DNA of 54,989 nt from a virus (taxonomy: Duplodnaviria; Caudoviricetes), in IMG/VR virus record IMGVR_UViG_3300012351_000011, positions 1 through 54,989 of that record; one strand, given 5' to 3'. The translations under genes and the position numbers were made by a program. Below are positions 26,344-47,896 of the stretch, piece after piece. The notes under the pieces were generated by a model. That model did not search any database and was not told the DNA's origin. It saw nothing but the letters and a program-made list of their open reading frames with translations. Within the stretch, counting starts at the first letter, position 1. Each line of letters begins with the position of its first letter.

Positions 26344-26706
26344 ATGGATACTGTATCACCTTCTGAATTAACCTTACAAGAGCAGATCAACTTGTTACGA
26401 AAACGGGTAGAGGCACTCGAAAAACGACCAGAGCACAAGAAGCGCAAGAAAACGTGGGCAAAACTGCCTCCGCTTACCCCTGAAGAAGAGAAACAGGCTA
26501 AATCTCTCATTCTGCCAGTCCTGAAAAGTTTGCCAAAGGGTAAAATGGTCAATTCGTACTTTATCTCTCAGCAAAAGATCCAGCTCAGGAGACTCGGCTC
26601 CGTCAAAGTACGCAACCGCCTGGAGGAACTTATCAGTTTGACTCCCGATTTTATCAAGAAAGAAGGAAAAGGCAAAACCACGCTCTATTGTCTCAATAAA
26701 GAGTAA
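26344..26706 (+). CDS. Coiled-coil plus winged-helix protein, paralogous to the C-terminus of the DUF3987 protein
   Basis: AGGAGG RBS, own promoter and terminator; visible alignment with the last ~60 aa of 10473-12224. Confidence 0.75.
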   Translation: MDTVSPSELTLQEQINLLRKRVEALEKRPEHKKRKKTWAKLPPLTPEEEKQAKSLILPVLKSLPKGKMVNSYFISQQKIQLRRLGSVKVRNRLEELISLTPDFIKKEGKGKTTLYCLNKE

Positions 26707-26724
26707 CCCTGTATCACAAACAAG

Positions 26725-26762
26725 AAAGAGACTGGCGATTAACTTTTGCCAGTCTCTTTTTA
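26725..26762 (+). terminator. Intrinsic terminator
   Basis: AAAGAGACTGGC/GCCAGTCTCTTT stem plus T run. Confidence 0.8.
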
Positions 26763-27305
26763 TTGTGCCTTGCAGGGGGTAGTGTGAGTGGAATTACACA
26801 AGATGACCGGATACATAGATGGAGACTTTATTCAAATTGGTTTGAAGAGTATGCTTAAAATATAAGATAGCTTGACAAGCCACTTTATAGCGTATCTATG
26901 TATGACATGTATATCTTTTGCTTAATAAGCTATATAAGCAAATATATATATTCTTTGGGTAAGTAATTGAATAGATATCTCTATTCTTTCTATCTATGTA
27001 TGGGTATGCATACTACCCCCTGCAAGGGATAGAAATATTTTTAACAATATCTTTTAAGCATCCCTATACATAAATAGGAAAAATAGAAAATAATATGCAC
27101 TGCCTCACCCAAAGAAAAAGGACTATAGCATAGTAAGCTTTTTTTGCTTTGTGGCGCATAGTCTACATAGATATGTTGTGATGTCGCTTCTCATCCTGAT
27201 CTCTGTTTTAAGCATCCTCAAGAACTTACTGAGCAAAATTTTAACTGTTTTGCTCACCTGCATAGATCCCTCTACCCCTTGCAAGGTATGACTAATCGAT
27301 GTGAA

Positions 27306-27348
27306 GTTCCTGTAGCGAAAGTGGATAGAGCGTCGGTCTTCGGAACCG
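27306..27348 (+). pseudogene. 5' half of tRNA-Arg (anticodon TCG), degenerate D-stem
   Basis: GTTCCTG-TA-GCGA-AAGTGGATA-GAGC-G-TCGGT-CTTCGGA-ACCG; no T-arm follows. Confidence 0.7.
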
Positions 27349-27514
27349 TAAGTATGGTATACTTCAGATAACTGTGTTATACTTCTTCTATGTCCATGCA
27401 TTAGGTTTTTGAGGTGATACGCAGTAGGTTGAGGCAGACAGGCAATAGGTTTATGTCTTTTTGACAAGAAACACTTTTTCTAAGACGGCTCTACAAGCCA
27501 TTTCCCTTTAAAAG

Positions 27515-27555
27515 TGTTCCCGACAGGAATCGAACCTGCGCACTCGGTTCCGGAG
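27515..27555 (-). other. attP core: 3' half of tRNA-Arg(CCG)
   Basis: CTCCGGA-ACCGA-GTGC-GCAGG-TTCGATT-CCTGT-CGGGAAC-A; begins at the anticodon loop, ~90 bp upstream of the integrase. Confidence 0.85.
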
Positions 27556-27642
27556 ACATACCTAACATTACCTCGGCTTCTCAAGCCAGTTTACCCCTAT
27601 TGCTGTAGTTGACGCACTCTGTTTCCCTTGCAAGGGGGCTAT

Positions 27643-28695
27643 GTGGCAAAACGAAAAGTACAAGAACGCTTGTTTGTTGCTATCCCTGTCCAGGAAGCGG
27701 TCGCCAGTTTTCTGGCATCAACGCATGTCAAACGCTTGATGCCAAACACCCAAACTGAGTACACGTCAGAACTGGGTACTTTTGCGAACTGGTGCGCAGG
27801 TCAACATGTCACGCTCGACCAGGTGAACGCGAAACAGGTTGACTTGTTTCTTGAACACATCAGATCGACGCACAAACCGCACCAGGTACACAGGAAAGAA
27901 GTCTCCAGCTATACCCTTGCAGGGATGACTCGGGTGATAAAAACGTTTCTCAATTGGTGCTTAGACGACGAAGAGTACAGCAAGCATGTCAAAGCCGATG
28001 TCGTCAGGCGTATCAAAAAGCCTCGGGTGATCAAGACCATTATCGAAACATTCACACCTGTGCAAATAGAAGCGTTATTTGCAGCCTGCGCCAAAGAGGA
28101 AAGCGATCACTTGCGTCTGCGAGATCGGGCCATTATCGCGCTTCTGTTGGACACTGGCATACGTGCGAATGAGCTATGCACTTTGACCATTGCCAATGTT
28201 GACCTATCGCCTGGAGACGCGCACATCAAGATATTAGGTAAAGGAAACAAGTGGGGTGAAGTTGGCATGGGCTCAGAATGTCGCAAGCTGATGAGCCAAT
28301 ACTTGCGCAAGTTTCGAGAGCCAACATTGGAAGATGAAATCAGAAGGGGGACACAAGGCAAGAAGCTGTCAGATCAGCAAGAGCGAAGACTGAAGAGAAA
28401 CTTGCAAGAGACAACGCCATTTTTTATGAACAGAAACGGCCAGTCGCTGACAACAAACGGCCTGGGCAGAATTGTTGCTCGTCTGGGTGAATGGGCCAAT
28501 ATCGAAGGTGTGCGATGTAGTCCTCACACCCTGCGTCATACATTCGCTGCCATGTTCATGCGTAATGGAGGGGATATTTACACGCTGTCAAAGCTCCTGC
28601 GTCATAGTTCGGTGAAGGTCACCGAGGACTATCTGAAGTCCATCCAGCAATGGGAAGCGCGCAAGAGCAGTAAATCTGTACTGGATAATTTGTAG
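27643..28695 (+). CDS. int: Tyrosine integrase (Xer-like, no obvious arm-binding domain)
   Basis: DTGIRANEL (R), GKGNK (K), HTLRH, LLRHS, EDY (Y); GTG start after AAGGGGG. Confidence 0.95.
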   Translation: MAKRKVQERLFVAIPVQEAVASFLASTHVKRLMPNTQTEYTSELGTFANWCAGQHVTLDQVNAKQVDLFLEHIRSTHKPHQVHRKEVSSYTLAGMTRVIKTFLNWCLDDEEYSKHVKADVVRRIKKPRVIKTIIETFTPVQIEALFAACAKEESDHLRLRDRAIIALLLDTGIRANELCTLTIANVDLSPGDAHIKILGKGNKWGEVGMGSECRKLMSQYLRKFREPTLEDEIRRGTQGKKLSDQQERRLKRNLQETTPFFMNRNGQSLTTNGLGRIVARLGEWANIEGVRCSPHTLRHTFAAMFMRNGGDIYTLSKLLRHSSVKVTEDYLKSIQQWEARKSSKSVLDNL

Positions 28696-28868
28696 TGTGG
28701 AACACTTCCCGCCTGTGTGCGACCACAAGCAGGAAGCTAGCACATTCCCATGGCACTGTAAGAGACGATGGGAACGGCTATAGCTATTGTAGCACAACAA
28801 TGTAGCTCTTCCCTATCGCCTCGACTCGTAAGTGTTTTTATCAAGAGAGTTGAGGAAAGGAAATTTTC

Positions 28869-32161: not shown

Positions 32162-32757
32162 GCGATACACTACAAGGGCATCCATGGGATCGGCAAAAAG
32201 ATGAGAATGGCAAACTTGAGCCTATGTTGTGGTGGAGGCGTTTTGAGATATATCGTTTGCTTGCTCCTGTGCGCACAATGACGCTGGCCTATCGTACAGA
32301 AGTGCCTGATACAGATCGTAAATTTGCTCCTACTCGTTGGTATATGAACGCAAAACAGTGGAAGTGGGATGAACGCGCGTCGGCGTGGGATAAGTTTCAG
32401 GCAGAAGAGCTTGAAAAACAGATAGCGGCAGAACAAAAGAGGATATTCAATCGGCAATATGCGCTTATTCATAAACGTGTCAAAGCACTGAACAAGCTTG
32501 CCAAGAAGCTTGAAGCGTATATGGAGGATGAAAATAATATCTGGCTACCCGATGTGAAAAGCATCGGCACAGGTCCTTCAGCAGAGCGTGTTGACCTTAT
32601 CAAATTTAACGATGCATTGATAAGCGAATACCGTGCGACGTTTGCCGATTTAGCCGCTGAACTGGGACATCGCATTAAGAAGACAAAAATGGATGTGTCA
32701 GTCACTCCCAAAGAGTACGTTGGCATCTCGGAAGATGAAGAAGGGAGTGAGCCTTGA
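32158..32757 (+). CDS. terS: Terminase small subunit
   Basis: PWDRQ..E, W.W.ERA.AWD pattern; directly before TerL. Confidence 0.7.
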   Translation: MSDTLQGHPWDRQKDENGKLEPMLWWRRFEIYRLLAPVRTMTLAYRTEVPDTDRKFAPTRWYMNAKQWKWDERASAWDKFQAEELEKQIAAEQKRIFNRQYALIHKRVKALNKLAKKLEAYMEDENNIWLPDVKSIGTGPSAERVDLIKFNDALISEYRATFADLAAELGHRIKKTKMDVSVTPKEYVGISEDEEGSEP

Positions 32758-34109
32758 TGGTAGCAGTTCCCTCTTATTCATCTCGACCAAATCTCAAAGT
32801 GTTATCACGTCCGAAAGAACGGCGCGCATATCAGCCATTTGGCGCAGCTCGTCAAGCCTGGCGTTCTGCTCGTCGAGAATGTTTGCTTGTGGGTCCGGCA
32901 AATACTGGCAAATCCAGAGCACTGCTTGAAAAGCTCCATTATTGTGCTGATAAGTATCCTGGCATACGTGGTTTGATGGTACGTAAGACACGTAAGAGCC
33001 TGACACAATCGGCCATGGTTACCTATGAGCAAAAGGTTCTCCCCGAGGGATGGCTTGATAGCCTTATTCATTTCAACACCACTGATCAGCAGTATGAATA
33101 TCCGAACGGCAGTATCATTGCCGTTGCCGGGATGGATGACCCTGACAAGATTCAGTCTTCTGAGTGGGACATGATCTATGTGCAGGAAGCAACAGAACTG
33201 AATGAAGAAGACTGGGAGATCATGACAAAATGTTTGCGTAACAAAGTCATGCGTTACCAGCAACTCATTGCTGACTGCAACCCTTCGTATCCTACGCATT
33301 GGCTCAAGAAACGCTGTGACCGTGGCGCAACGCTCATGCTTTACTCCCGGCATGAAGACAACCCAACATTCACGCCTGAAGATCAGGCAACCCTCGACGC
33401 ACTAACAGGCGTGCGTAAAAAGCGATTGAGAGATGGGATATGGGCCGCTGCTGAAGGCATAGTGTATGAAGAGTGGGACCCAGCTATCCACCTGGTTGAT
33501 CGTTCTGATATTCCCTTCAGATGGCCGCGCTACTGGGTCCTGGATTTTGGCTTCCGTCATCCATTTTGCTTACAGTGGTGGGCAGAACAGCCTGACGGTG
33601 AATTGGTACGCTATCGAGAAATTTACATGACACAGCGACTGGTAGAAGAGCACGCGAAACTTGCGATGAAATTGAGTGCAGGTGAACCTCGGCCAGTGGC
33701 AATTATTTGCGATTCAGCAGATGCCGAAGGGCGTGCGACCTTTCAAAAGCATACCGGCTATGACACTGTTCCTGCACAGAAAGCCATTAGCATGGGTATT
33801 CAGGATGTGCAGTCTCGATTACGTGTACAACGCAATAAAAAGCCAGGTGTGCGCTTTATGCGCGATAGCCTGGTTGAACGCGATCCATGGCTTGAAAGCA
33901 AAAAAATGCCAATGTGTACAGAAGAAGAATTTGAAAGTTATGTGTGGAATGAGGACAACGGGCGTAAAAAGGGTGAAGAGCCGGTAGACAAGGACAATCA
34001 CGGCATGGACTGTTTGAGGTATCTTTGCCGCTACAAAGAGGGCGGCCAGGACATTGACGAACTTGACGAAGAAACCGCAAGTGCGATTAGTGGATACATG
34101 GGATATTAG
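32754..34109 (+). CDS. terL: Terminase large subunit
   Basis: GPANTGKS Walker A, YVQEATE Walker B, DCNP, LDFGF, NHGMDCLRY nuclease. Confidence 0.95.
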   Translation: MMVAVPSYSSRPNLKVLSRPKERRAYQPFGAARQAWRSARRECLLVGPANTGKSRALLEKLHYCADKYPGIRGLMVRKTRKSLTQSAMVTYEQKVLPEGWLDSLIHFNTTDQQYEYPNGSIIAVAGMDDPDKIQSSEWDMIYVQEATELNEEDWEIMTKCLRNKVMRYQQLIADCNPSYPTHWLKKRCDRGATLMLYSRHEDNPTFTPEDQATLDALTGVRKKRLRDGIWAAAEGIVYEEWDPAIHLVDRSDIPFRWPRYWVLDFGFRHPFCLQWWAEQPDGELVRYREIYMTQRLVEEHAKLAMKLSAGEPRPVAIICDSADAEGRATFQKHTGYDTVPAQKAISMGIQDVQSRLRVQRNKKPGVRFMRDSLVERDPWLESKKMPMCTEEEFESYVWNEDNGRKKGEEPVDKDNHGMDCLRYLCRYKEGGQDIDELDEETASAISGYMGY

Positions 34110-40183: not shown

Positions 40184-41236
40184 ATGGCATACGGCACATT
40201 ACAAATTCTCGATACGCTTGCCGCAAACCGGACGTTTATTGCGAACTACGGTGAAGACAATGCGTACCGAGCAATTCAAGCGTTTCTCGACGCACACAAT
40301 GAGATCGTCGGCATGATGCTTGATGACCTCGTAGAGACCACTACAGACCGCCTACGCCGCTACGGTGGTGTTGACACCATGACCATGATCGAAGGCGATG
40401 AGTTTTCAACACCTGATGTTCAAAAGGTCCTCCCGGGCGTAAACGTCGGTTTTCCTCTGCGCCTGTTCCAGCTTGGCTTGCAGTGGACAACCAAATACTT
40501 CCAAACGCACACCGTGGCAGAATTGGCTGGCCAGGTAAATGCCGCCATGACTGCTGACGCGCGAAGAATTCAATCTGAATTGAAACGAGCAATCTTTACC
40601 CCGACCAATAACACCGCGTACATTGATAGGCTGGTTGACAATCTCAACCTTCCCATTCGCGCTCTGCTGAACGCTGACGGAACGCAAATCCCGGCTGACC
40701 CCTTCGGTAACACGTTCAACCCGGCCACTCATACGCACTATCTGGGAGCTGCTGCATGGGCTGCCGCTGACCTGACCGCGCTCATTAACACGGTGCTAGA
40801 GCACTACAACGAAGGTGGCATCAAGGTCTATATCAATCAGGCGCAAGAAGCCGCTGTACGTGGATTTGCAGGTTTTACCGCATACGTTGACAGTCGTATC
40901 ATTACAGCGACTACGCAGTCTATTGGACAAGAGCCATTAGACCTGATGAACGTCTACAACCGCGCTATTGGCGTGTTTGGCGCGGCTGAAGTATGGGTCA
41001 AACCATGGGTGATTGCGAACTATGTATTCGCATTCAATCCCAATCAGCGCAAGCCATTGGCCATGCGCACACGCGATAATACCCCGACCGGACTGCGTAT
41101 CGCCGCTGAATACGATGAATATCCGCTGCACGCCAAATTTATGGAGCGTGAATTCGGCCTGGGTGTCCAGGAGCGCCAAAACGGGGCCATTTTGCAAACA
41201 AATAACGCCACATATACTGTTCCTGCATCTTTCTAA
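40184..41236 (+). CDS. Major capsid protein (HK97 fold)
   Basis: 350 aa; position after scaffold and decoration genes. Confidence 0.8.
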   Translation: MAYGTLQILDTLAANRTFIANYGEDNAYRAIQAFLDAHNEIVGMMLDDLVETTTDRLRRYGGVDTMTMIEGDEFSTPDVQKVLPGVNVGFPLRLFQLGLQWTTKYFQTHTVAELAGQVNAAMTADARRIQSELKRAIFTPTNNTAYIDRLVDNLNLPIRALLNADGTQIPADPFGNTFNPATHTHYLGAAAWAAADLTALINTVLEHYNEGGIKVYINQAQEAAVRGFAGFTAYVDSRIITATTQSIGQEPLDLMNVYNRAIGVFGAAEVWVKPWVIANYVFAFNPNQRKPLAMRTRDNTPTGLRIAAEYDEYPLHAKFMEREFGLGVQERQNGAILQTNNATYTVPASF

Positions 41237-45150: not shown

Positions 45151-45266
45151 CTTTGTTGCTGCATAAGAGTGCAGCGGAAATCTGGGAACTGGATAACACT
45201 GAAATCATTGAGTGGTTAGCCTTCCTGCAACTAAAAGCGCAACCGAAAGAAGAAACTGAGCAATGA
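45105..45266 (+). CDS. Frameshifted chaperone extension (gpT-like)
   Basis: -1 frame after A-AAA-AAA reads ..YELALLLHKSAAEIWELDNTEIIEWLAF..; stop overlaps the TMP start. Confidence 0.75.
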   Translation, partial: REFESSARKRTVYELALLLHKSAAEIWELDNTEIIEWLAFLQLKAQPKEETEQ

Positions 45267-47896
45267 GCACAACGCTCGGAGATGCCAACGTCAAATTTGG
45301 CGCGGACCTATCTGGATTTACAGCCGGTATTGCCACTGCAAAGGGGCAGATGACCGGCTTTTCTGACAGTGTGTCTAGCGCCATGCGAGATGTTGCCTCT
45401 GCTCAGCAAAAGGCCAGTGAAGCTGCCAAACAACTGGAATTAGCGCAATCGAACGCGGCTCTTGCATTCAAAAAAGCCTACGATATGGCTATATCTGGCA
45501 AAGCTTCAGATGAACAACTTGCAGTAGCGCAGGCACAGGCCGCTGTATCCGCTGAAAAAGTGTCAGCCGCTCAGTTGAACGTTGTGTCTGCTGAAGAGAA
45601 AGCAGCAAACGCGGCGCGACAGCTTGCCGAAAGTCAACAGCAAGAAGCACAATCCGGGGATAGAGCCGCGCAATCGGAAAATGAGCTTGCATCTGCCAGT
45701 AGTCACGCTTCTGAGTCCTCTAGCGGTTTCGGCTTTTCTCTGGGAGGTCTTGTTGGGAAGGTCATGGACTTTGGAAGCAAGATCGGCATGACCATCTTTG
45801 GCGTGCAAAGTTTCATTCAGACCGTAGGGGGCATAGCAAACGCTTTCATTGCGCCAAATGCCTCAATGGAGCAAACAAAAACAGCGTTTACAAGCCTGCT
45901 TGGCGGCTCCCAAGCTGCACAAGCTGAACTGGATAAGCTAGTCAAATTTGCCGCTGACACGCCCTTCGAGTTTCCTGCTCTAGCAGAAGCTGACCAGAAA
46001 TTAATAGCTTTCCAATTCACCACGAAACAGACACAACCTCTACTCACAGCCATAGGTGATGCTCTCTCAGGACTGGGCAAGAATACCCCTGCTTATTTAT
46101 CGCAAGTGGTTGATGTGTTCGGACAAATGCACGCAGCGGGCAAGATCCAGACACAAGACCTCATGCAACTCACGAGCGTTGGTATCAATGGCTTCCAGAT
46201 GCTTGCAGACGGTATGCATCTGACTGTACCTCAAGTCAAAGATCTCGTCACAAAGGGCCTCATTCCTGCTGACAAGGGCATCGAATTGCTACGTCAAGGC
46301 ATGGAGAAGACGTTCGGCGGTGGTATGCAAAAGCAAAGCGAGACGTTCAACGGGTTGATGTCTACGCTATCAGATAATATCGGGGGCGCATGGCGGGCGT
46401 TCACGGGTCCGCTATTCGACAAAGCGAAAGAGGGCCTGACTGAACTGGGTAAGCTGGTGTCGTCGCCTGATTTCCAGAAATTTGCGAAGACACTGGGTGA
46501 GGATGTAGGCCGGGCGCTAGATGACATCGGACAATTTGTTGAGCATGATGTAGCACCTGCACTGTCAAAACTTGGAGAGCTATTTCATACCGCACAACAG
46601 GACTGGCAAGATTTCACGTCGCATATTGACTTCAAAGATATCAAAAGCTCGCTTGGGGTATTCAGCAAAGCATTTCAGGATGACATTCTCACGCCGCTTG
46701 GCAAGATTTCTGACGATATATTTAAGCCATTGGCTGATAGCTTTAAAAATGTTGATTTCAGCCAACTGGGAAAGCTCTTCAGTCAGGATGTGATTAGCGG
46801 GCTCAACCAGGGAAGCAAGCTTCTGGGAGATGTCGGGAAGTATCTGAAGGAGGATATAGAGCCTGCTGTCAAGAGTGTTGTGCCAAAATTTGAGGATCTA
46901 GCTCATACATTTGGACACGACGTTGCTCCTGCCCTAGCTGATATCTCGGAAAAAGGTGGCAAGGTCGTCAAGGACATATTTGAGCGTCTAGCACCTGTCC
47001 TGAAGGATCTAGGTCCGGATACGATCAAGTTTGCCGGGGCATTGGCGAAGGATTTATCTGATGCTCTGAAGATCGTAACGCCAGAAATCAAGGATGCTAC
47101 CCTTGCAGTTCTGGATTTTGCTGATAAAATCTCAAATCGCGTGTCACCGGCAATCAATGAGATGTGGGCCGGGCTGAATGACCCATCCATGCAGCCAATA
47201 TGGGCGGGTATATGGGCATTCTTTTCTGATACAGTGAAGACTACATGGGACACCATAGACGGCATAGTCAGAATTGGCTGGTCGCTACTGTCTGGGCAAA
47301 TTCTCCTTGGGTTGGATATCCTCAGTGGAAACTGGGGGCAAGCCTGGCAAGATTTGAAGGATATGCTCTCTGGCGTCTGGGATGGCATTCGTGTTGCAAC
47401 CAAAGACGGCATGGGGAAGGTCATAGACGCCATTGAAGGGCAATATGACCGTACTTTTAACGCGATGACCGGGCCATTTGGGGACGCCTACAGGCAAATC
47501 CGCGCCTGGTTGGAGGATATCCGCAGACTTTGGGACCAATCAAAGCCGACCGCTCTGGATGAGTCTACACCTGGACCAAAAGGTTCAAGTGGTGACTTTG
47601 GCGGCGGCGGCGGCTCAGTCAAAGGCTTTGCCAGTGGCGGCTCAAACATCCCCGCTGGCCGCTACAAGGTTGGTGAAGGTGGCTGGGAATTTATGGATGT
47701 GCCTGGCGGCTCTAACATCTACAATCACGCGCAAAGTATGAACATGGCTAATACACCCTTGCAAGGGAATAATCATCCTGTCGTAGTCGAGAACCATGTA
47801 CATATTTATCTCGACGGTCAAGAGATGACCGACATCATCATGTCTAGCGCTATGACTCGTATCCTTGGGCATGGGCCGGTCAGGAGCACGATATGA
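45263..47896 (+). CDS. Tape measure protein
   Basis: FAADTPFEF..GKIQTQDLMQL..TFNGLMSTLSD tape-measure domain, W-spaced repeats, FASGG..VGEGG.E. Confidence 0.93.
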   Translation: MSTTLGDANVKFGADLSGFTAGIATAKGQMTGFSDSVSSAMRDVASAQQKASEAAKQLELAQSNAALAFKKAYDMAISGKASDEQLAVAQAQAAVSAEKVSAAQLNVVSAEEKAANAARQLAESQQQEAQSGDRAAQSENELASASSHASESSSGFGFSLGGLVGKVMDFGSKIGMTIFGVQSFIQTVGGIANAFIAPNASMEQTKTAFTSLLGGSQAAQAELDKLVKFAADTPFEFPALAEADQKLIAFQFTTKQTQPLLTAIGDALSGLGKNTPAYLSQVVDVFGQMHAAGKIQTQDLMQLTSVGINGFQMLADGMHLTVPQVKDLVTKGLIPADKGIELLRQGMEKTFGGGMQKQSETFNGLMSTLSDNIGGAWRAFTGPLFDKAKEGLTELGKLVSSPDFQKFAKTLGEDVGRALDDIGQFVEHDVAPALSKLGELFHTAQQDWQDFTSHIDFKDIKSSLGVFSKAFQDDILTPLGKISDDIFKPLADSFKNVDFSQLGKLFSQDVISGLNQGSKLLGDVGKYLKEDIEPAVKSVVPKFEDLAHTFGHDVAPALADISEKGGKVVKDIFERLAPVLKDLGPDTIKFAGALAKDLSDALKIVTPEIKDATLAVLDFADKISNRVSPAINEMWAGLNDPSMQPIWAGIWAFFSDTVKTTWDTIDGIVRIGWSLLSGQILLGLDILSGNWGQAWQDLKDMLSGVWDGIRVATKDGMGKVIDAIEGQYDRTFNAMTGPFGDAYRQIRAWLEDIRRLWDQSKPTALDESTPGPKGSSGDFGGGGGSVKGFASGGSNIPAGRYKVGEGGWEFMDVPGGSNIYNHAQSMNMANTPLQGNNHPVVVENHVHIYLDGQEMTDIIMSSAMTRILGHGPVRSTI

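What the first reader, a model, noticed from the sequence alone, without database searches (positions are those of the whole stretch)
27306..27557. Split tRNA-Arg in inverted halves before the integrase: possible invertible switch or dual att site
Seen: a tRNA 5' half on + (27306-27348) and a 3' half on - (27555-27515). Their acceptor strands pair (GTTCCTG/CGGGAAC, one G-U), and they share the inverted core GTCT(T/C)CGGAACCG at the anticodon loop. Inverting the ~200 bp between the cores would join them into a full cloverleaf and flip two TGnTATACT extended -10 boxes (27355-27363, 27375-27383) that now point at int. Known: tyrosine integrases often cross over in tRNA anticodon loops, and attP normally carries only the 3' half. 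This integrase appears to lack an arm-binding domain, so its directionality control is unclear. Inference: an int on/off inversion switch, a second or decoy att site (TCG vs CCG isoacceptors), or a relic of aberrant recombination. Caveats: the 5' D-stem is degenerate and the 7-bp loops differ at one base, which usually hampers tyrosine recombination.
Basis: partly seen in the sequence, partly recalled or inferred. Interest (0 to 1): 0.75.

Follow-up and report, generated by a model that had tools for sequence, protein, structure and literature searches.

The report
Phage attP carrying both tRNA halves
The integration site of this soil phage carries the usual back half of its target arginine tRNA gene and also an upside-down copy of the front half, a layout shared by all its close relatives whose purpose is still unknown.

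Summary
The window is a whole 55-kb temperate siphophage, probably of Ktedonobacteria. Positions 27515-27557 (- strand) are the 3' half of tRNA-Arg(CCG). This is the true attP/attB common core: a contig from the same soil samples matches it 41/42 and continues into a complete tRNA. Positions 27306-27348 (+) are a diverged copy (36/43) of the same tRNA's 5' half, not a TCG isoacceptor.

Inverting the DNA between the 13-nt inverted cores in silico gives an ARAGORN tRNA-Arg. Controls gave 0 of 46 and 1 of 235.

The layout is shared across the clade. All 16 non-redundant excised-form relatives with Int at least 45% identical have it, over four tRNA identities, always with matching halves. In 5 of 5 lysogens, which add Thr, the inverted 5' copy lies about 150-200 bp from the rebuilt tRNA at the prophage end far from int.

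No flipped form was seen: 0 of 16 phage loci and 0 of 5 lysogens. Only assembled contigs were available for the window itself.

In this phage the copy is decaying: the D-stem is broken and the crossover loop has a mismatch. An active switch is therefore unlikely here.

My best reading is a canonical attP plus the footprint of an integrase-made inversion of a phage-borne tRNA gene. It may have been reused as an integrase site or as the int leader.

Three literature searches found no description. Earlier notes of this scan describe inverted spare attP sites only in serine-integrase elements.

The parts
27306..27348 (+). Inverted, diverged copy of the 5' half (positions 1-42) of tRNA-Arg(CCG). 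It ends in a near-complete anticodon stem-loop, here called core O1.
   Evidence: sequence; 36/43 identity to a Ktedonobacteria tRNA-Arg(CCG); forms a tRNA with the 3' half after in-silico inversion. Homologous pieces in all close relatives.
27336..27348 (+). Left arm of the 13-nt inverted core (O1). It differs from the right arm at the wobble position (T versus C).
   Evidence: pair I11 (92% complementary, 196 nt apart).
27349..27514 (.). Spacer, or P arm. It holds two extended -10-like boxes pointing at int (27355-27363, 27375-27383). It holds three direct repeats GCAnTAGGTT (27398, 27421, 27442) that resemble the core half-site GCACTCGGTT (27540). It also holds a hairpin-forming stretch just beyond the tRNA 3' end.
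   Evidence: D3, D6, D7; 4 of the 6 genome-wide matches to GCANTNGGTT fall in 27398-27549. Relatives carry their own core-like repeats and a tRNA terminator in the spacer.
27515..27557 (-). 3' half of tRNA-Arg(CCG), from the anticodon loop to the discriminator. This is the attP common core, holding the crossover region O2 at 27545-27557.
   Evidence: a 4189-nt contig in the same two runs matches 27516-27557 with 1 difference and runs on into a tRNA 5' half; conserved upstream of 9 related integrases; the same piece marks both prophage ends in lysogens.
27558..27642 (.). P' arm and int leader. It holds one more core-like half-site (27614-27623, GCACTCTGTT) and one copy of the phage-wide palindrome CCTTGCAAGG (27626-27635) overlapping the ribosome-binding site.
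   Evidence: (D3).
27628..28695 (+). Tyrosine integrase with no arm-binding domain (XerD-like). The likely start is GTG at 27643, giving 350 aa.
   Evidence: PF00589, E 1e-28; the identical 350-aa database protein, and relatives in Ktedonobacteria; invariant R179, K205/K208, H300, R303, H326, Y335.
26707..27305 (.). Non-coding, repeat-rich DNA left of the 5' half. It may be the outer P arm or a regulatory region, and includes a possible promoter reading into the 5' half.
   Evidence: In the relatives L083/L175/L084 the conserved module begins exactly at a TTGACT-17-TACAAT-type promoter just upstream of the 5' half. No consensus promoter was scored in the window itself.

Best explanation
SHOWN. 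This is the attachment site (attP) of a temperate phage. The - strand 3' half (27515-27557) is the common core shared with the host tRNA-Arg(CCG) gene. The neighbouring integrase, which has no arm-binding domain, crosses over in the anticodon loop. On integration the phage 3' half, with a phage-supplied terminator, replaces the host one, and the displaced host 3' half ends up next to int. This was seen in lysogens of relatives.

The + strand 5' half is a true but decaying copy of the same tRNA's 5' half. It is a fixed part of the attP-int module of this integrase clade. It is always inverted, always 110-202 bp from the core at the outer end of the P arm, and always matches the tRNA of the 3' half. 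In lysogens it lies beside the rebuilt tRNA as an inverted repeat of that tRNA's own 5' half.

INFERRED, origin. The pair of halves is the footprint of an integrase-catalysed inversion between a complete, phage-borne copy of the target tRNA gene (an attB mimic) and a short-core attP. Such an event splits the tRNA exactly at the anticodon loop and leaves the short common core on both products; these are the 5-13-nt inverted cores. It also turns a bare-core attP into a canonical 3'-half attP in one step.

INFERRED, upkeep. The 5' copy may be kept matching the target by correction against the host copy while the two sit as a close inverted repeat in lysogens, or by re-capture.

INFERRED, present role. 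At most it is the promoter-proximal leader of an int transcript that crosses attP, which integration cuts off. It may also be the outermost integrase half-site of the P arm. In this particular phage it is not an active switch and cannot yield a good tRNA.
For: Core and host:
- 41/42 match to a complete tRNA-bearing contig in the same runs.
- The 3' half is conserved upstream of 9 related integrases.
- In 5 of 5 lysogens (G001, G002, G003, G005, G006) there is a lone 3' half next to int. At the far end there is a complete tRNA with an inverted 5' copy 150-200 bp away: 30-32 nt perfect in three, 35 nt in one, and 18 nt plus 18 nt of upstream flank in one.

Clade-wide layout:
- 18 of 43 upstream regions tested were positive. 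These reduce to 15 non-redundant loci, plus L084 by eye, so 16 of 16 excised-form loci with Int at least 45% identical.
- 13 of 16 give the matching tRNA after in-silico inversion.
- 0 of 46 controls were positive, and none of the 16 tested loci of the more distant 37-40% group.

Matching halves over Arg-CCG, -TCT, -TCG, -GCG and Gly-TCC, with Thr-TGT added by the lysogens. The targets are interleaved on the integrase tree.

Boundaries:
- The attP core starts at tRNA position 25-32.
- The 5' copy ends at 31-43 in all phage loci, and at 30-35 in four lysogens (18 in the fifth).
- The two therefore overlap by 5-13 nt at the loop.
- The copy sometimes carries the host's upstream flank: 26 nt with the -10 box in L160, and the end of tRNA-Pro in L163.

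Promoter: in L083/L175/L084 the conserved block begins at the -35 of a good promoter 8-13 nt before the 5' half. Sequence further upstream cannot be aligned.

Decay in the window:
- The 5' copy is 36/43 identical and the 3' half 40/43 to a reference tRNA.
- The D-stem has 2-3 pairs.
- The loop has a mismatch.

The bare-core-plus-own-tRNA layout that the inversion would start from exists in nature (abstract and discussion of PMC10865867).
Against: - No phage with the presumed starting layout (complete tRNA plus bare core next to this integrase clade) was found. ARAGORN saw no tRNA within 4 kb of any close relative.
- A scar without function should have been deleted in some lineages, yet 16 of 16 phage loci and 5 of 5 lysogens keep it. 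That points to selection.
- The promoter stretch upstream of the 5' half is similar in phages with different targets (L005 and L081). This argues against fresh capture of promoter plus tRNA at every target switch.
- In several loci the anticodon stems of the copy are kept while only the loop is changed. Examples are L159 (loop replaced, both stems perfect), L083/L084 (3-nt loop deletion) and the window. This looks like selection for a binding site that does not recombine, rather than neutral decay.
- How a complete tRNA gene would come to lie inverted within 200 bp of attP is unexplained.
- The transcript and promoter are predictions only. The consensus scan scored no promoter here.
Confidence: 0.5

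Rival explanations
1. Functional accessory site. The 5' half is kept because its anticodon-stem part is a native-quality integrase half-site, a mimic of the attB left arm, at the outer end of the P arm. An integrase with no arm-binding domain would use it, together with the core-like repeats in the spacer, to build the attP complex, to bias direction, or to repress its own promoter. It binds integrase but is not meant to recombine.
For: - Universal retention: 16 of 16 phage loci and 5 of 5 lysogens.
- The integrase lacks an arm-binding domain.
- The spacer and P' arm hold direct repeats that resemble the core half-site, and the 5' stem strand reads the same way round. In the window 4 of the 6 genome-wide matches lie in 27398-27549.
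- Changes that kill the loop but keep the stems occur in several lineages.
- Distant relatives carry 12-14-nt copies of the anticodon-stem region between tRNA and int.
- Integrase autoregulation through att sites that overlap the int promoter is known (abstract of PMC2951348).
Against: - A half-site needs about 10 nt, yet acceptor and D-arm are copied too. In L163 only positions 1-18 survive and the stem part is gone.
- The distance to the core varies from 110 to 202 bp with no phasing.
- The count of core-like repeats was above shuffles in only 3 of 15 loci with my crude half-site definition.
- No binding data exist.
Confidence: 0.27
2. Active invertible switch of the fimS type. Integrase flips the roughly 200-bp segment between the cores. 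One state has split halves with promoters reading into int. The other has a complete tRNA-Arg gene whose terminator now blocks int.
For: - 13-nt inverted cores lie next to a tyrosine recombinase gene.
- Inversion gives an ARAGORN tRNA, and the matching tRNA in 13 of 16 relatives.
- Two extended -10 boxes inside the segment point at int.
- The terminator in the spacer faces the right way only after inversion.
- By eye, about 9 of the 16 phage loci keep an identical 7-nt loop in both cores.
Against: - No flipped form in 16 phage loci or 5 lysogens.
- The window's loop has a central mismatch and its D-stem is broken.
- The loop is deleted, lengthened or replaced in L080, L082, L083/84, L085 and L087, and in three lysogens.
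- The -10 boxes are not conserved.
- The contigs show one orientation, but contigs cannot show a minority form.
Confidence: 0.12
3. Second att site. The phage can also integrate through the 5'-half core in the opposite orientation, rebuilding the tRNA from the phage promoter and 5' half plus the host 3' half. Alternatively the site targets or decoys a TCG isoacceptor.
For: The 5' copy comes with a promoter-like flank in several relatives. A rebuilt gene would therefore be expressible. The geometry allows it.
Against: - 5 of 5 lysogens are integrated through the 3'-half core.
- The right side of the 5'-half core is a poor half-site.
- The copy is of the CCG type, not the TCG type.
- In this phage the rebuilt tRNA would have a broken D-stem.
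Confidence: 0.05

Closest known systems
Canonical tRNA-targeting phage attP with a tyrosine integrase and an anticodon-loop crossover. The class is recalled from Williams 2002 (not read here); the Islander abstract, PMC4383910, was seen in a search listing only.
   Same: Tyrosine integrase next to attP. A 42-bp common core runs from the anticodon loop to the tRNA 3' end. Integration rebuilds the tRNA and displaces the host 3' fragment.
   Different: An extra, inverted, matching copy of the tRNA 5' half lies 110-202 bp away. The integrase has no arm-binding domain. The accessory repeats look like core half-sites.
tRNA-dependent lysogeny (Guerrero-Bustamante and Hatfull 2024, PMC10865867; abstract, discussion and passages read)
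   Same: The phage carries sequence for the whole target tRNA. The flipped form of this locus would be exactly their layout: a bare core of about 10 bp plus a complete matching phage tRNA.
   Different: Here the tRNA is split and inverted, and no complete phage tRNA exists. Integration rebuilds the host gene. Their integrases have arm-binding domains.
fimS-type invertible promoter switches run by tyrosine recombinases (FimB/FimE; recalled)
   Same: A short segment of about 200-300 bp is bounded by 9-13-bp inverted repeats. It sits beside a recombinase with no arm-binding domain and has promoter-like boxes inside.
   Different: No second orientation was seen. The repeats are tRNA anticodon loops that also serve as attP. 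There is a mismatch in the overlap.
Inverted spare attP copies in serine-integrase islands of Patescibacteria
   Same: A tRNA-targeting mobile element keeps an extra att-related repeat in inverted orientation, as a family-wide layout of unknown purpose.
   Different: The enzyme class differs (serine recombinase). There a whole attP is duplicated. Here the host-side (attB left arm) half of the target is copied.
Integrase genes whose promoter overlaps the att region and is autoregulated (KplE1 IntS, PMC2951348; abstract read)
   Same: The int promoter or leader is interwoven with att arms. Integrase binding could control its own gene.
   Different: There the overlap is with attL in the prophage. 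Here the putative promoter lies across attP and is cut off from int by integration.

Membership tests
tRNA-targeting tyrosine-integrase attP (anticodon-loop class) | Adjacent tyrosine recombinase with an intact catalytic set | tested here: met
   PF00589 E 1e-28. R179, K205/K208, H300, R303, H326 and Y335 are invariant in 28 sequences.
tRNA-targeting tyrosine-integrase attP (anticodon-loop class) | attP shares with the host a core running from the anticodon loop to the tRNA 3' end | tested here: met
   A contig in the same runs matches 27516-27557 at 41/42 and continues as a tRNA 5' half.
tRNA-targeting tyrosine-integrase attP (anticodon-loop class) | Integration rebuilds the tRNA and leaves a displaced 3' fragment at the other end | tested here: met
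   Seen in 5 of 5 lysogens of relatives. Not testable for this phage's own host.
Lambda-type (heterobivalent) integrase systems | N-terminal arm-binding domain with distinct arm-type sites | tested here: not met
   Only about 26 residues precede the core-binding domain and there is no arm-binding Pfam family. The accessory repeats resemble the core half-site.
Invertible DNA switch (fimS type) | Both orientations occur in a population | tested here: inconclusive
   One orientation in contigs of 2 runs (contigs cannot show minor forms). No flipped form in 16 related phage loci or 5 lysogens.
Invertible DNA switch (fimS type) | Identical crossover (overlap) sequence in both inverted repeats | tested here: not met
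   T versus C at the centre of the 7-nt loop. The loop is disrupted in several relatives.
tRNA-dependent lysogeny | Short common core so that the host tRNA is not rebuilt | tested here: not met
   The core is 42 bp and covers the whole 3' half.
tRNA-dependent lysogeny | Complete phage-encoded tRNA of the same isotype | tested here: not met
   ARAGORN finds 0 tRNAs in the window. Only split halves are present.
Split tRNA genes joined at the RNA level (Nanoarchaeum type; recalled) | The trailer of the 5' half is complementary to the leader of the 3' half | tested here: not met
   Duplex energy -19.7 kcal/mol against a shuffle mean of -22.2. 218 of 300 shuffles were as good or better.

The most novel reading that the evidence does not exclude
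These phages carry their target tRNA gene split into two inverted halves around the attP arm. A single integrase-catalysed inversion converts between two known lifestyles. One is the canonical attP with a 3' half. The other is a bare-core attP plus a complete matching phage tRNA, the layout of tRNA-dependent lysogeny. Capturing a tRNA gene and inverting it would then be a general one-step way for integrases without an arm-binding domain to retarget attP to a new tRNA. In lineages with intact loops the flip may still work as a switch that makes a tRNA and shuts off int.
Probability: 0.2. Interest if true: 0.85.

Novelty: new variant of a known kind. Interest (0 to 1): 0.6.

Why it matters
Textbook attP sites in tRNA genes carry only the 3' part of the target. 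Here a whole clade of phages with arm-less integrases also keeps the 5' part, inverted. It stays matched to the 3' part through at least five changes of target tRNA.

This gives a concrete, testable link between canonical tRNA-rebuilding integration and the recently described tRNA-dependent lysogeny. The authors of that work call the evolutionary relation between the two unclear (PMC10865867, discussion).

It also bears on two open questions. One is how attP sites acquire the exact 3' half of a new target. The other is how integrases without an arm-binding domain organise attP and control direction.

Three cultured, non-pathogenic hosts carry such prophages: Ktedonobacter racemifer DSM 44963, Dictyobacter kobayashii Uno11 and strain brp13. 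Experiments are therefore feasible.

Tried and rejected
- blastn of 26700-28700 against 50,697 phage records: no match.
- Single-protein scan of viral contigs: none. The alignment-based scan worked.
- Rfam at E up to 10 on 26500-28000: no tRNA hit for either half, only chance miRNA/snoRNA-type matches.
- Read test of inversion: the two runs that hold the phage are kept only as assembled contigs. They show one orientation and no joints.
- Exact scan of viral contigs with a 31-nt Arg-CCG 5'-half stretch: only the two contigs already known.
- Class-level genome search for more lysogens (151 genomes): only the three known close ones at E below 1e-170. The lysogen sample stays at five. The far end of the G004 prophage was not found.
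- Consensus promoter/terminator scan of 26600-27750: no site near the halves, 2 promoter-like sites against 2.9 expected, 0 terminators.
- I first read the palindrome CCTTGCAAGG as an int/attP operator. Rejected: it occurs 45 times across the genome, also inside genes.
- Automatic counting of core-like half-sites in 15 loci: above shuffles in only 3, because the half-site definition shifted with the repeat bounds. I use it as a hint only.
- RNA-level joining of the halves through complementary flanks: rejected.
- A T27-A43 pairing between the two phage halves, unlike the C27 of the contig, was considered as evidence for joint tRNA function. I dropped it because the position of the single contig difference was not shown and the true host may carry T-A.
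- Literature: three full-text searches found no description of an inverted 5' tRNA half in attP. Subscription journals are not covered.

Full report
WHAT THE WINDOW IS

The 54,989-base window is the whole record held for this genome. It encodes a siphovirus-type temperate phage:
- tyrosine integrase (27628/27643-28695);
- large terminase (32754-34109);
- major head protein (40184-41236);
- tape measure (45263-47896);
- a helicase and primases on the left.

The closest integrases, at 49-59% identity, are in Ktedonobacteria (Chloroflexota) genomes and soil metagenomes. No phage in the 50,697-record collection resembles the region.

THE OBSERVATION

- A 5' tRNA half lies on + at 27306-27348.
- A 3' half lies on - at 27557-27515.
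- A 13-nt inverted core with one mismatch sits at 27336-27348 and 27545-27557.
- Two TGnTATACT boxes lie between them.

ARAGORN sees no tRNA in the native window, and Rfam sees none at E up to 10. Inverting the DNA between the cores in silico gives a 74-nt tRNA-Arg with a weak D-stem of 2-3 pairs.

The same inversion-plus-ARAGORN test on control regions gave 0 of 46 and 1 of 235. This is not chance.

Against a Ktedonobacteria tRNA-Arg(CCG), the 5' piece matches 36/43 columns and the 3' piece 40/43. Its acceptor strand and anticodon stem are of the CCG type, unlike the Arg-TCG halves of relative L081. The TCG anticodon is therefore a point change, not a second isoacceptor.

THE 3' HALF IS THE REAL attP CORE

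Two soil runs hold the phage; both may be its source. In both, a separate 4189-nt contig at higher depth matches 27516-27557 with one difference. It runs on into a tRNA 5' half on one side and a hairpin on the other. That is what an empty attB in a tRNA-Arg(CCG) gene looks like.

The same 3' half lies upstream of 9 related integrases.

I could see both prophage ends in five bacterial genomes. A lone 3' half sits next to int, and a complete tRNA closes the far end 13-62 kb away:
- Arg-CCG in G001, G002 and G003;
- Gly-TCC in G005;
- Thr-TGT in G006.

So integration crosses in the anticodon loop of the 3'-half core and rebuilds the gene. That is the canonical outcome.

THE 5' HALF IS A CLADE-WIDE PART OF THE MODULE

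I examined 51 integrase loci and dropped 8 that had under 250 nt of upstream sequence. Of the 43 tested, 18 gave a junction-spanning tRNA after in-silico inversion.

After removing three duplicates (L174 = L081; L180 and L181 = L089) and adding L084, this is 16 of 16 excised-form loci with Int at least 45% identical. In L084 the 5' half is visible but too decayed for ARAGORN. In 13 of the 16 the call is the matching tRNA.

The 25 negatives are:
- L084;
- the int-side junctions of lysogens (L001-L004, L006, L007), where the 5' copy is expected at the other end;
- L171, with only 279 nt upstream;
- 16 more distant loci: 15 with Int 37-40% identical plus L009 (39%). Those inspected show no tRNA halves there, except a lone 3' half in L008 and two complete tRNAs in L009.

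The geometry never varies: 5' half on +, a spacer of 110-202 bp, 3' half on -, then 60-100 bp, then int on +.

The halves always match each other, over Arg-CCG, Arg-TCT, Arg-TCG, Arg-GCG and Gly-TCC, with Thr-TGT in a lysogen. These targets are interleaved on the integrase tree. For example, the Arg-TCT phage L080 is sister to the Arg-CCG phage L079. Both halves have therefore switched together several times.

In all five lysogens the inverted 5' copy lies 150-200 bp from the rebuilt tRNA, on the phage side:
- It is a perfect inverted repeat of that tRNA's first 30-32 nt in three of them and 35 nt in one.
- In G002 it also includes 26 nt of the host's leader and -10 box.
- In G005 it comprises 18 nt of the tRNA plus 18 nt of the preceding tRNA-Pro gene.

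ANATOMY THAT BEARS ON ORIGIN AND FUNCTION

(a) The attP core begins at tRNA position 25-32. The 5' copy ends at position 31-43 in all phage loci, and at 30-35 in four lysogens (18 in G005). The two overlap by 5-13 nt centred on the anticodon loop. That is what a site-specific exchange between a whole tRNA gene and a short-core att site would leave on both products.

(b) The outer boundary of the copy varies and can include host flank, as an illegitimate capture would.

(c) In the close trio L083/L175/L084 the conserved block starts exactly at the -35 of a TTGACT-17-TACAAT-type promoter, 8-13 nt before the 5' half. Everything further left cannot be aligned. In L005/L085 the -10 has moved into the acceptor strand. 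Lysogen copies also have extended -10 boxes like the host tRNA promoters. A rightward transcript would cross attP into int in the excised genome, and integration would cut it off.

(d) The spacer holds a terminator for the tRNA on the - strand. It also holds direct repeats resembling the core half-site. In the window 4 of the 6 genome-wide matches to GCANTNGGTT lie in 27398-27549. The integrase has no arm-binding domain. A preprint that classifies these enzymes counts 27 phages with such simple recombinases against 410 with an arm-binding domain (10.1101/542381, passages).

(e) The copy is not kept as a working tRNA half.
- In the window and L084 the D-arm is broken.
- In L083/L084 the loop lacks 3 nt, while their close relative L175 has it intact.
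- In L085 the loop has an extra base.
- In L159 only the loop is replaced while both stems are perfect.

This patchy pattern, with perfect copies in lysogens and decayed ones in free phages, fits correction against the host copy while the two form a close inverted repeat. Quasi-palindrome correction is recalled knowledge, not tested here.

WHAT I CONCLUDE

Shown:
- This is attP.
- The 3' half is the crossover core.
- The 5' half is a homologous, inverted, lineage-conserved element that ends up beside the rebuilt tRNA.

Inferred, and my best reading at about 0.5: the split pair is the footprint of an integrase-made inversion between a phage-borne complete tRNA gene and a short-core attP. The presumed starting layout, a bare core of about 10 bp plus a complete matching phage tRNA, is what Guerrero-Bustamante and Hatfull describe as tRNA-dependent lysogeny. 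They state that its evolutionary relation to canonical attP sites is unclear (PMC10865867, abstract and discussion).

The copy may since have been reused as the leader of an int transcript or as the outermost integrase half-site. There is precedent for integrase autoregulation through att/promoter overlap (PMC2951348, abstract).

Against a pure scar stands its retention in 16 of 16 phage loci and 5 of 5 lysogens, together with the loop-only changes. I therefore give a functional, non-recombining accessory site about 0.27.

An active switch gets about 0.12. No flipped form was seen in any relative or lysogen, and in this phage the loop has a mismatch and the D-stem is broken. However, only contigs could be laid for the window, so a minor orientation is not excluded.

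A second att site or a TCG decoy gets about 0.05. RNA-level joining of the halves is rejected.

KNOWN OR NEW

Three full-text searches found no description of an attP that carries an inverted 5' half of its target tRNA. Subscription journals are not covered.

Earlier notes of this scan describe inverted spare attP copies in serine-integrase islands of Patescibacteria (unchecked). That is a related theme with a different enzyme and a different duplicated part.

I rate this a new variant of a known kind: a canonical tRNA-targeting tyrosine-integrase attP with an added, conserved, inverted attB-left-arm copy. The mechanism is open but directly testable in three cultured hosts.

Noticed in passing
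whole window, e.g. 1930, 13228, 27277, 27626, 34587, 43561: The palindrome CCTTGCAAGG (extended roughly to ACCCCTTGCAAGGGG) occurs 24 times perfectly and 45 times with at most 1 mismatch, against 2.5 expected. It lies both inside genes and between them. In four Ktedonobacteria genomes the 12-mer CCCTTGCAAGGG is found almost only inside prophage regions of this phage group, for example 17 of 19 in G002. It is an iterated palindrome specific to this phage group, and its function is unknown.
   Followed up: partly
26707-27305: About 600 bp of non-coding DNA left of the 5' half is packed with short repeats, for example TATCTATGTAT about 5 times on both strands and TTTTAAGCATCC twice. Each related phage has its own 8-10-nt repeat in the same place. 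These could be iterons, regulator sites or outer att arms.
   Followed up: no
27398-27451, 27540-27549, 27614-27623: There are direct repeats GCAnTAGGTT (three copies, 21-23 nt apart) and GCACTCTGTT that resemble the core half-site GCACTCGGTT. Similar core-like repeats sit in the spacers of relatives, for example three copies of GCACCCGGTT in L159. They are likely accessory integrase sites for an enzyme without an arm-binding domain.
   Followed up: partly
L010, L014, L024, L026, L028, L035, L041, L064, L068 (distant integrase relatives): In Dehalococcoidia-type and other distant relatives, int lies next to a complete tRNA. Copies of 12-14 nt of tRNA positions about 20-35 or 38-49 lie between the tRNA and int. 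In some the tRNA's 5' end faces int, which is unusual.
   Followed up: no
L088:3605-3632: The spacer of this Arg-GCG phage holds a second, partial 5'-half-like piece (D-arm plus anticodon stem-loop) in the same orientation as the main one. It may be an older copy.
   Followed up: no
L004 / G001:C1:1384262-1433205: Dictyobacter kobayashii has three copies of the tRNA-Arg(CCG) 3' half in a row. A roughly 10-kb element with a different integrase sits in tandem with the 39-kb prophage at the same tRNA.
   Followed up: no
L084:3890-3950: Compared with its close relatives L083 and L175, L084 has an insertion between the core and int. The insertion carries a good TTGACA-17-TATAGT promoter, so int would keep a promoter of its own after integration.
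   Followed up: no
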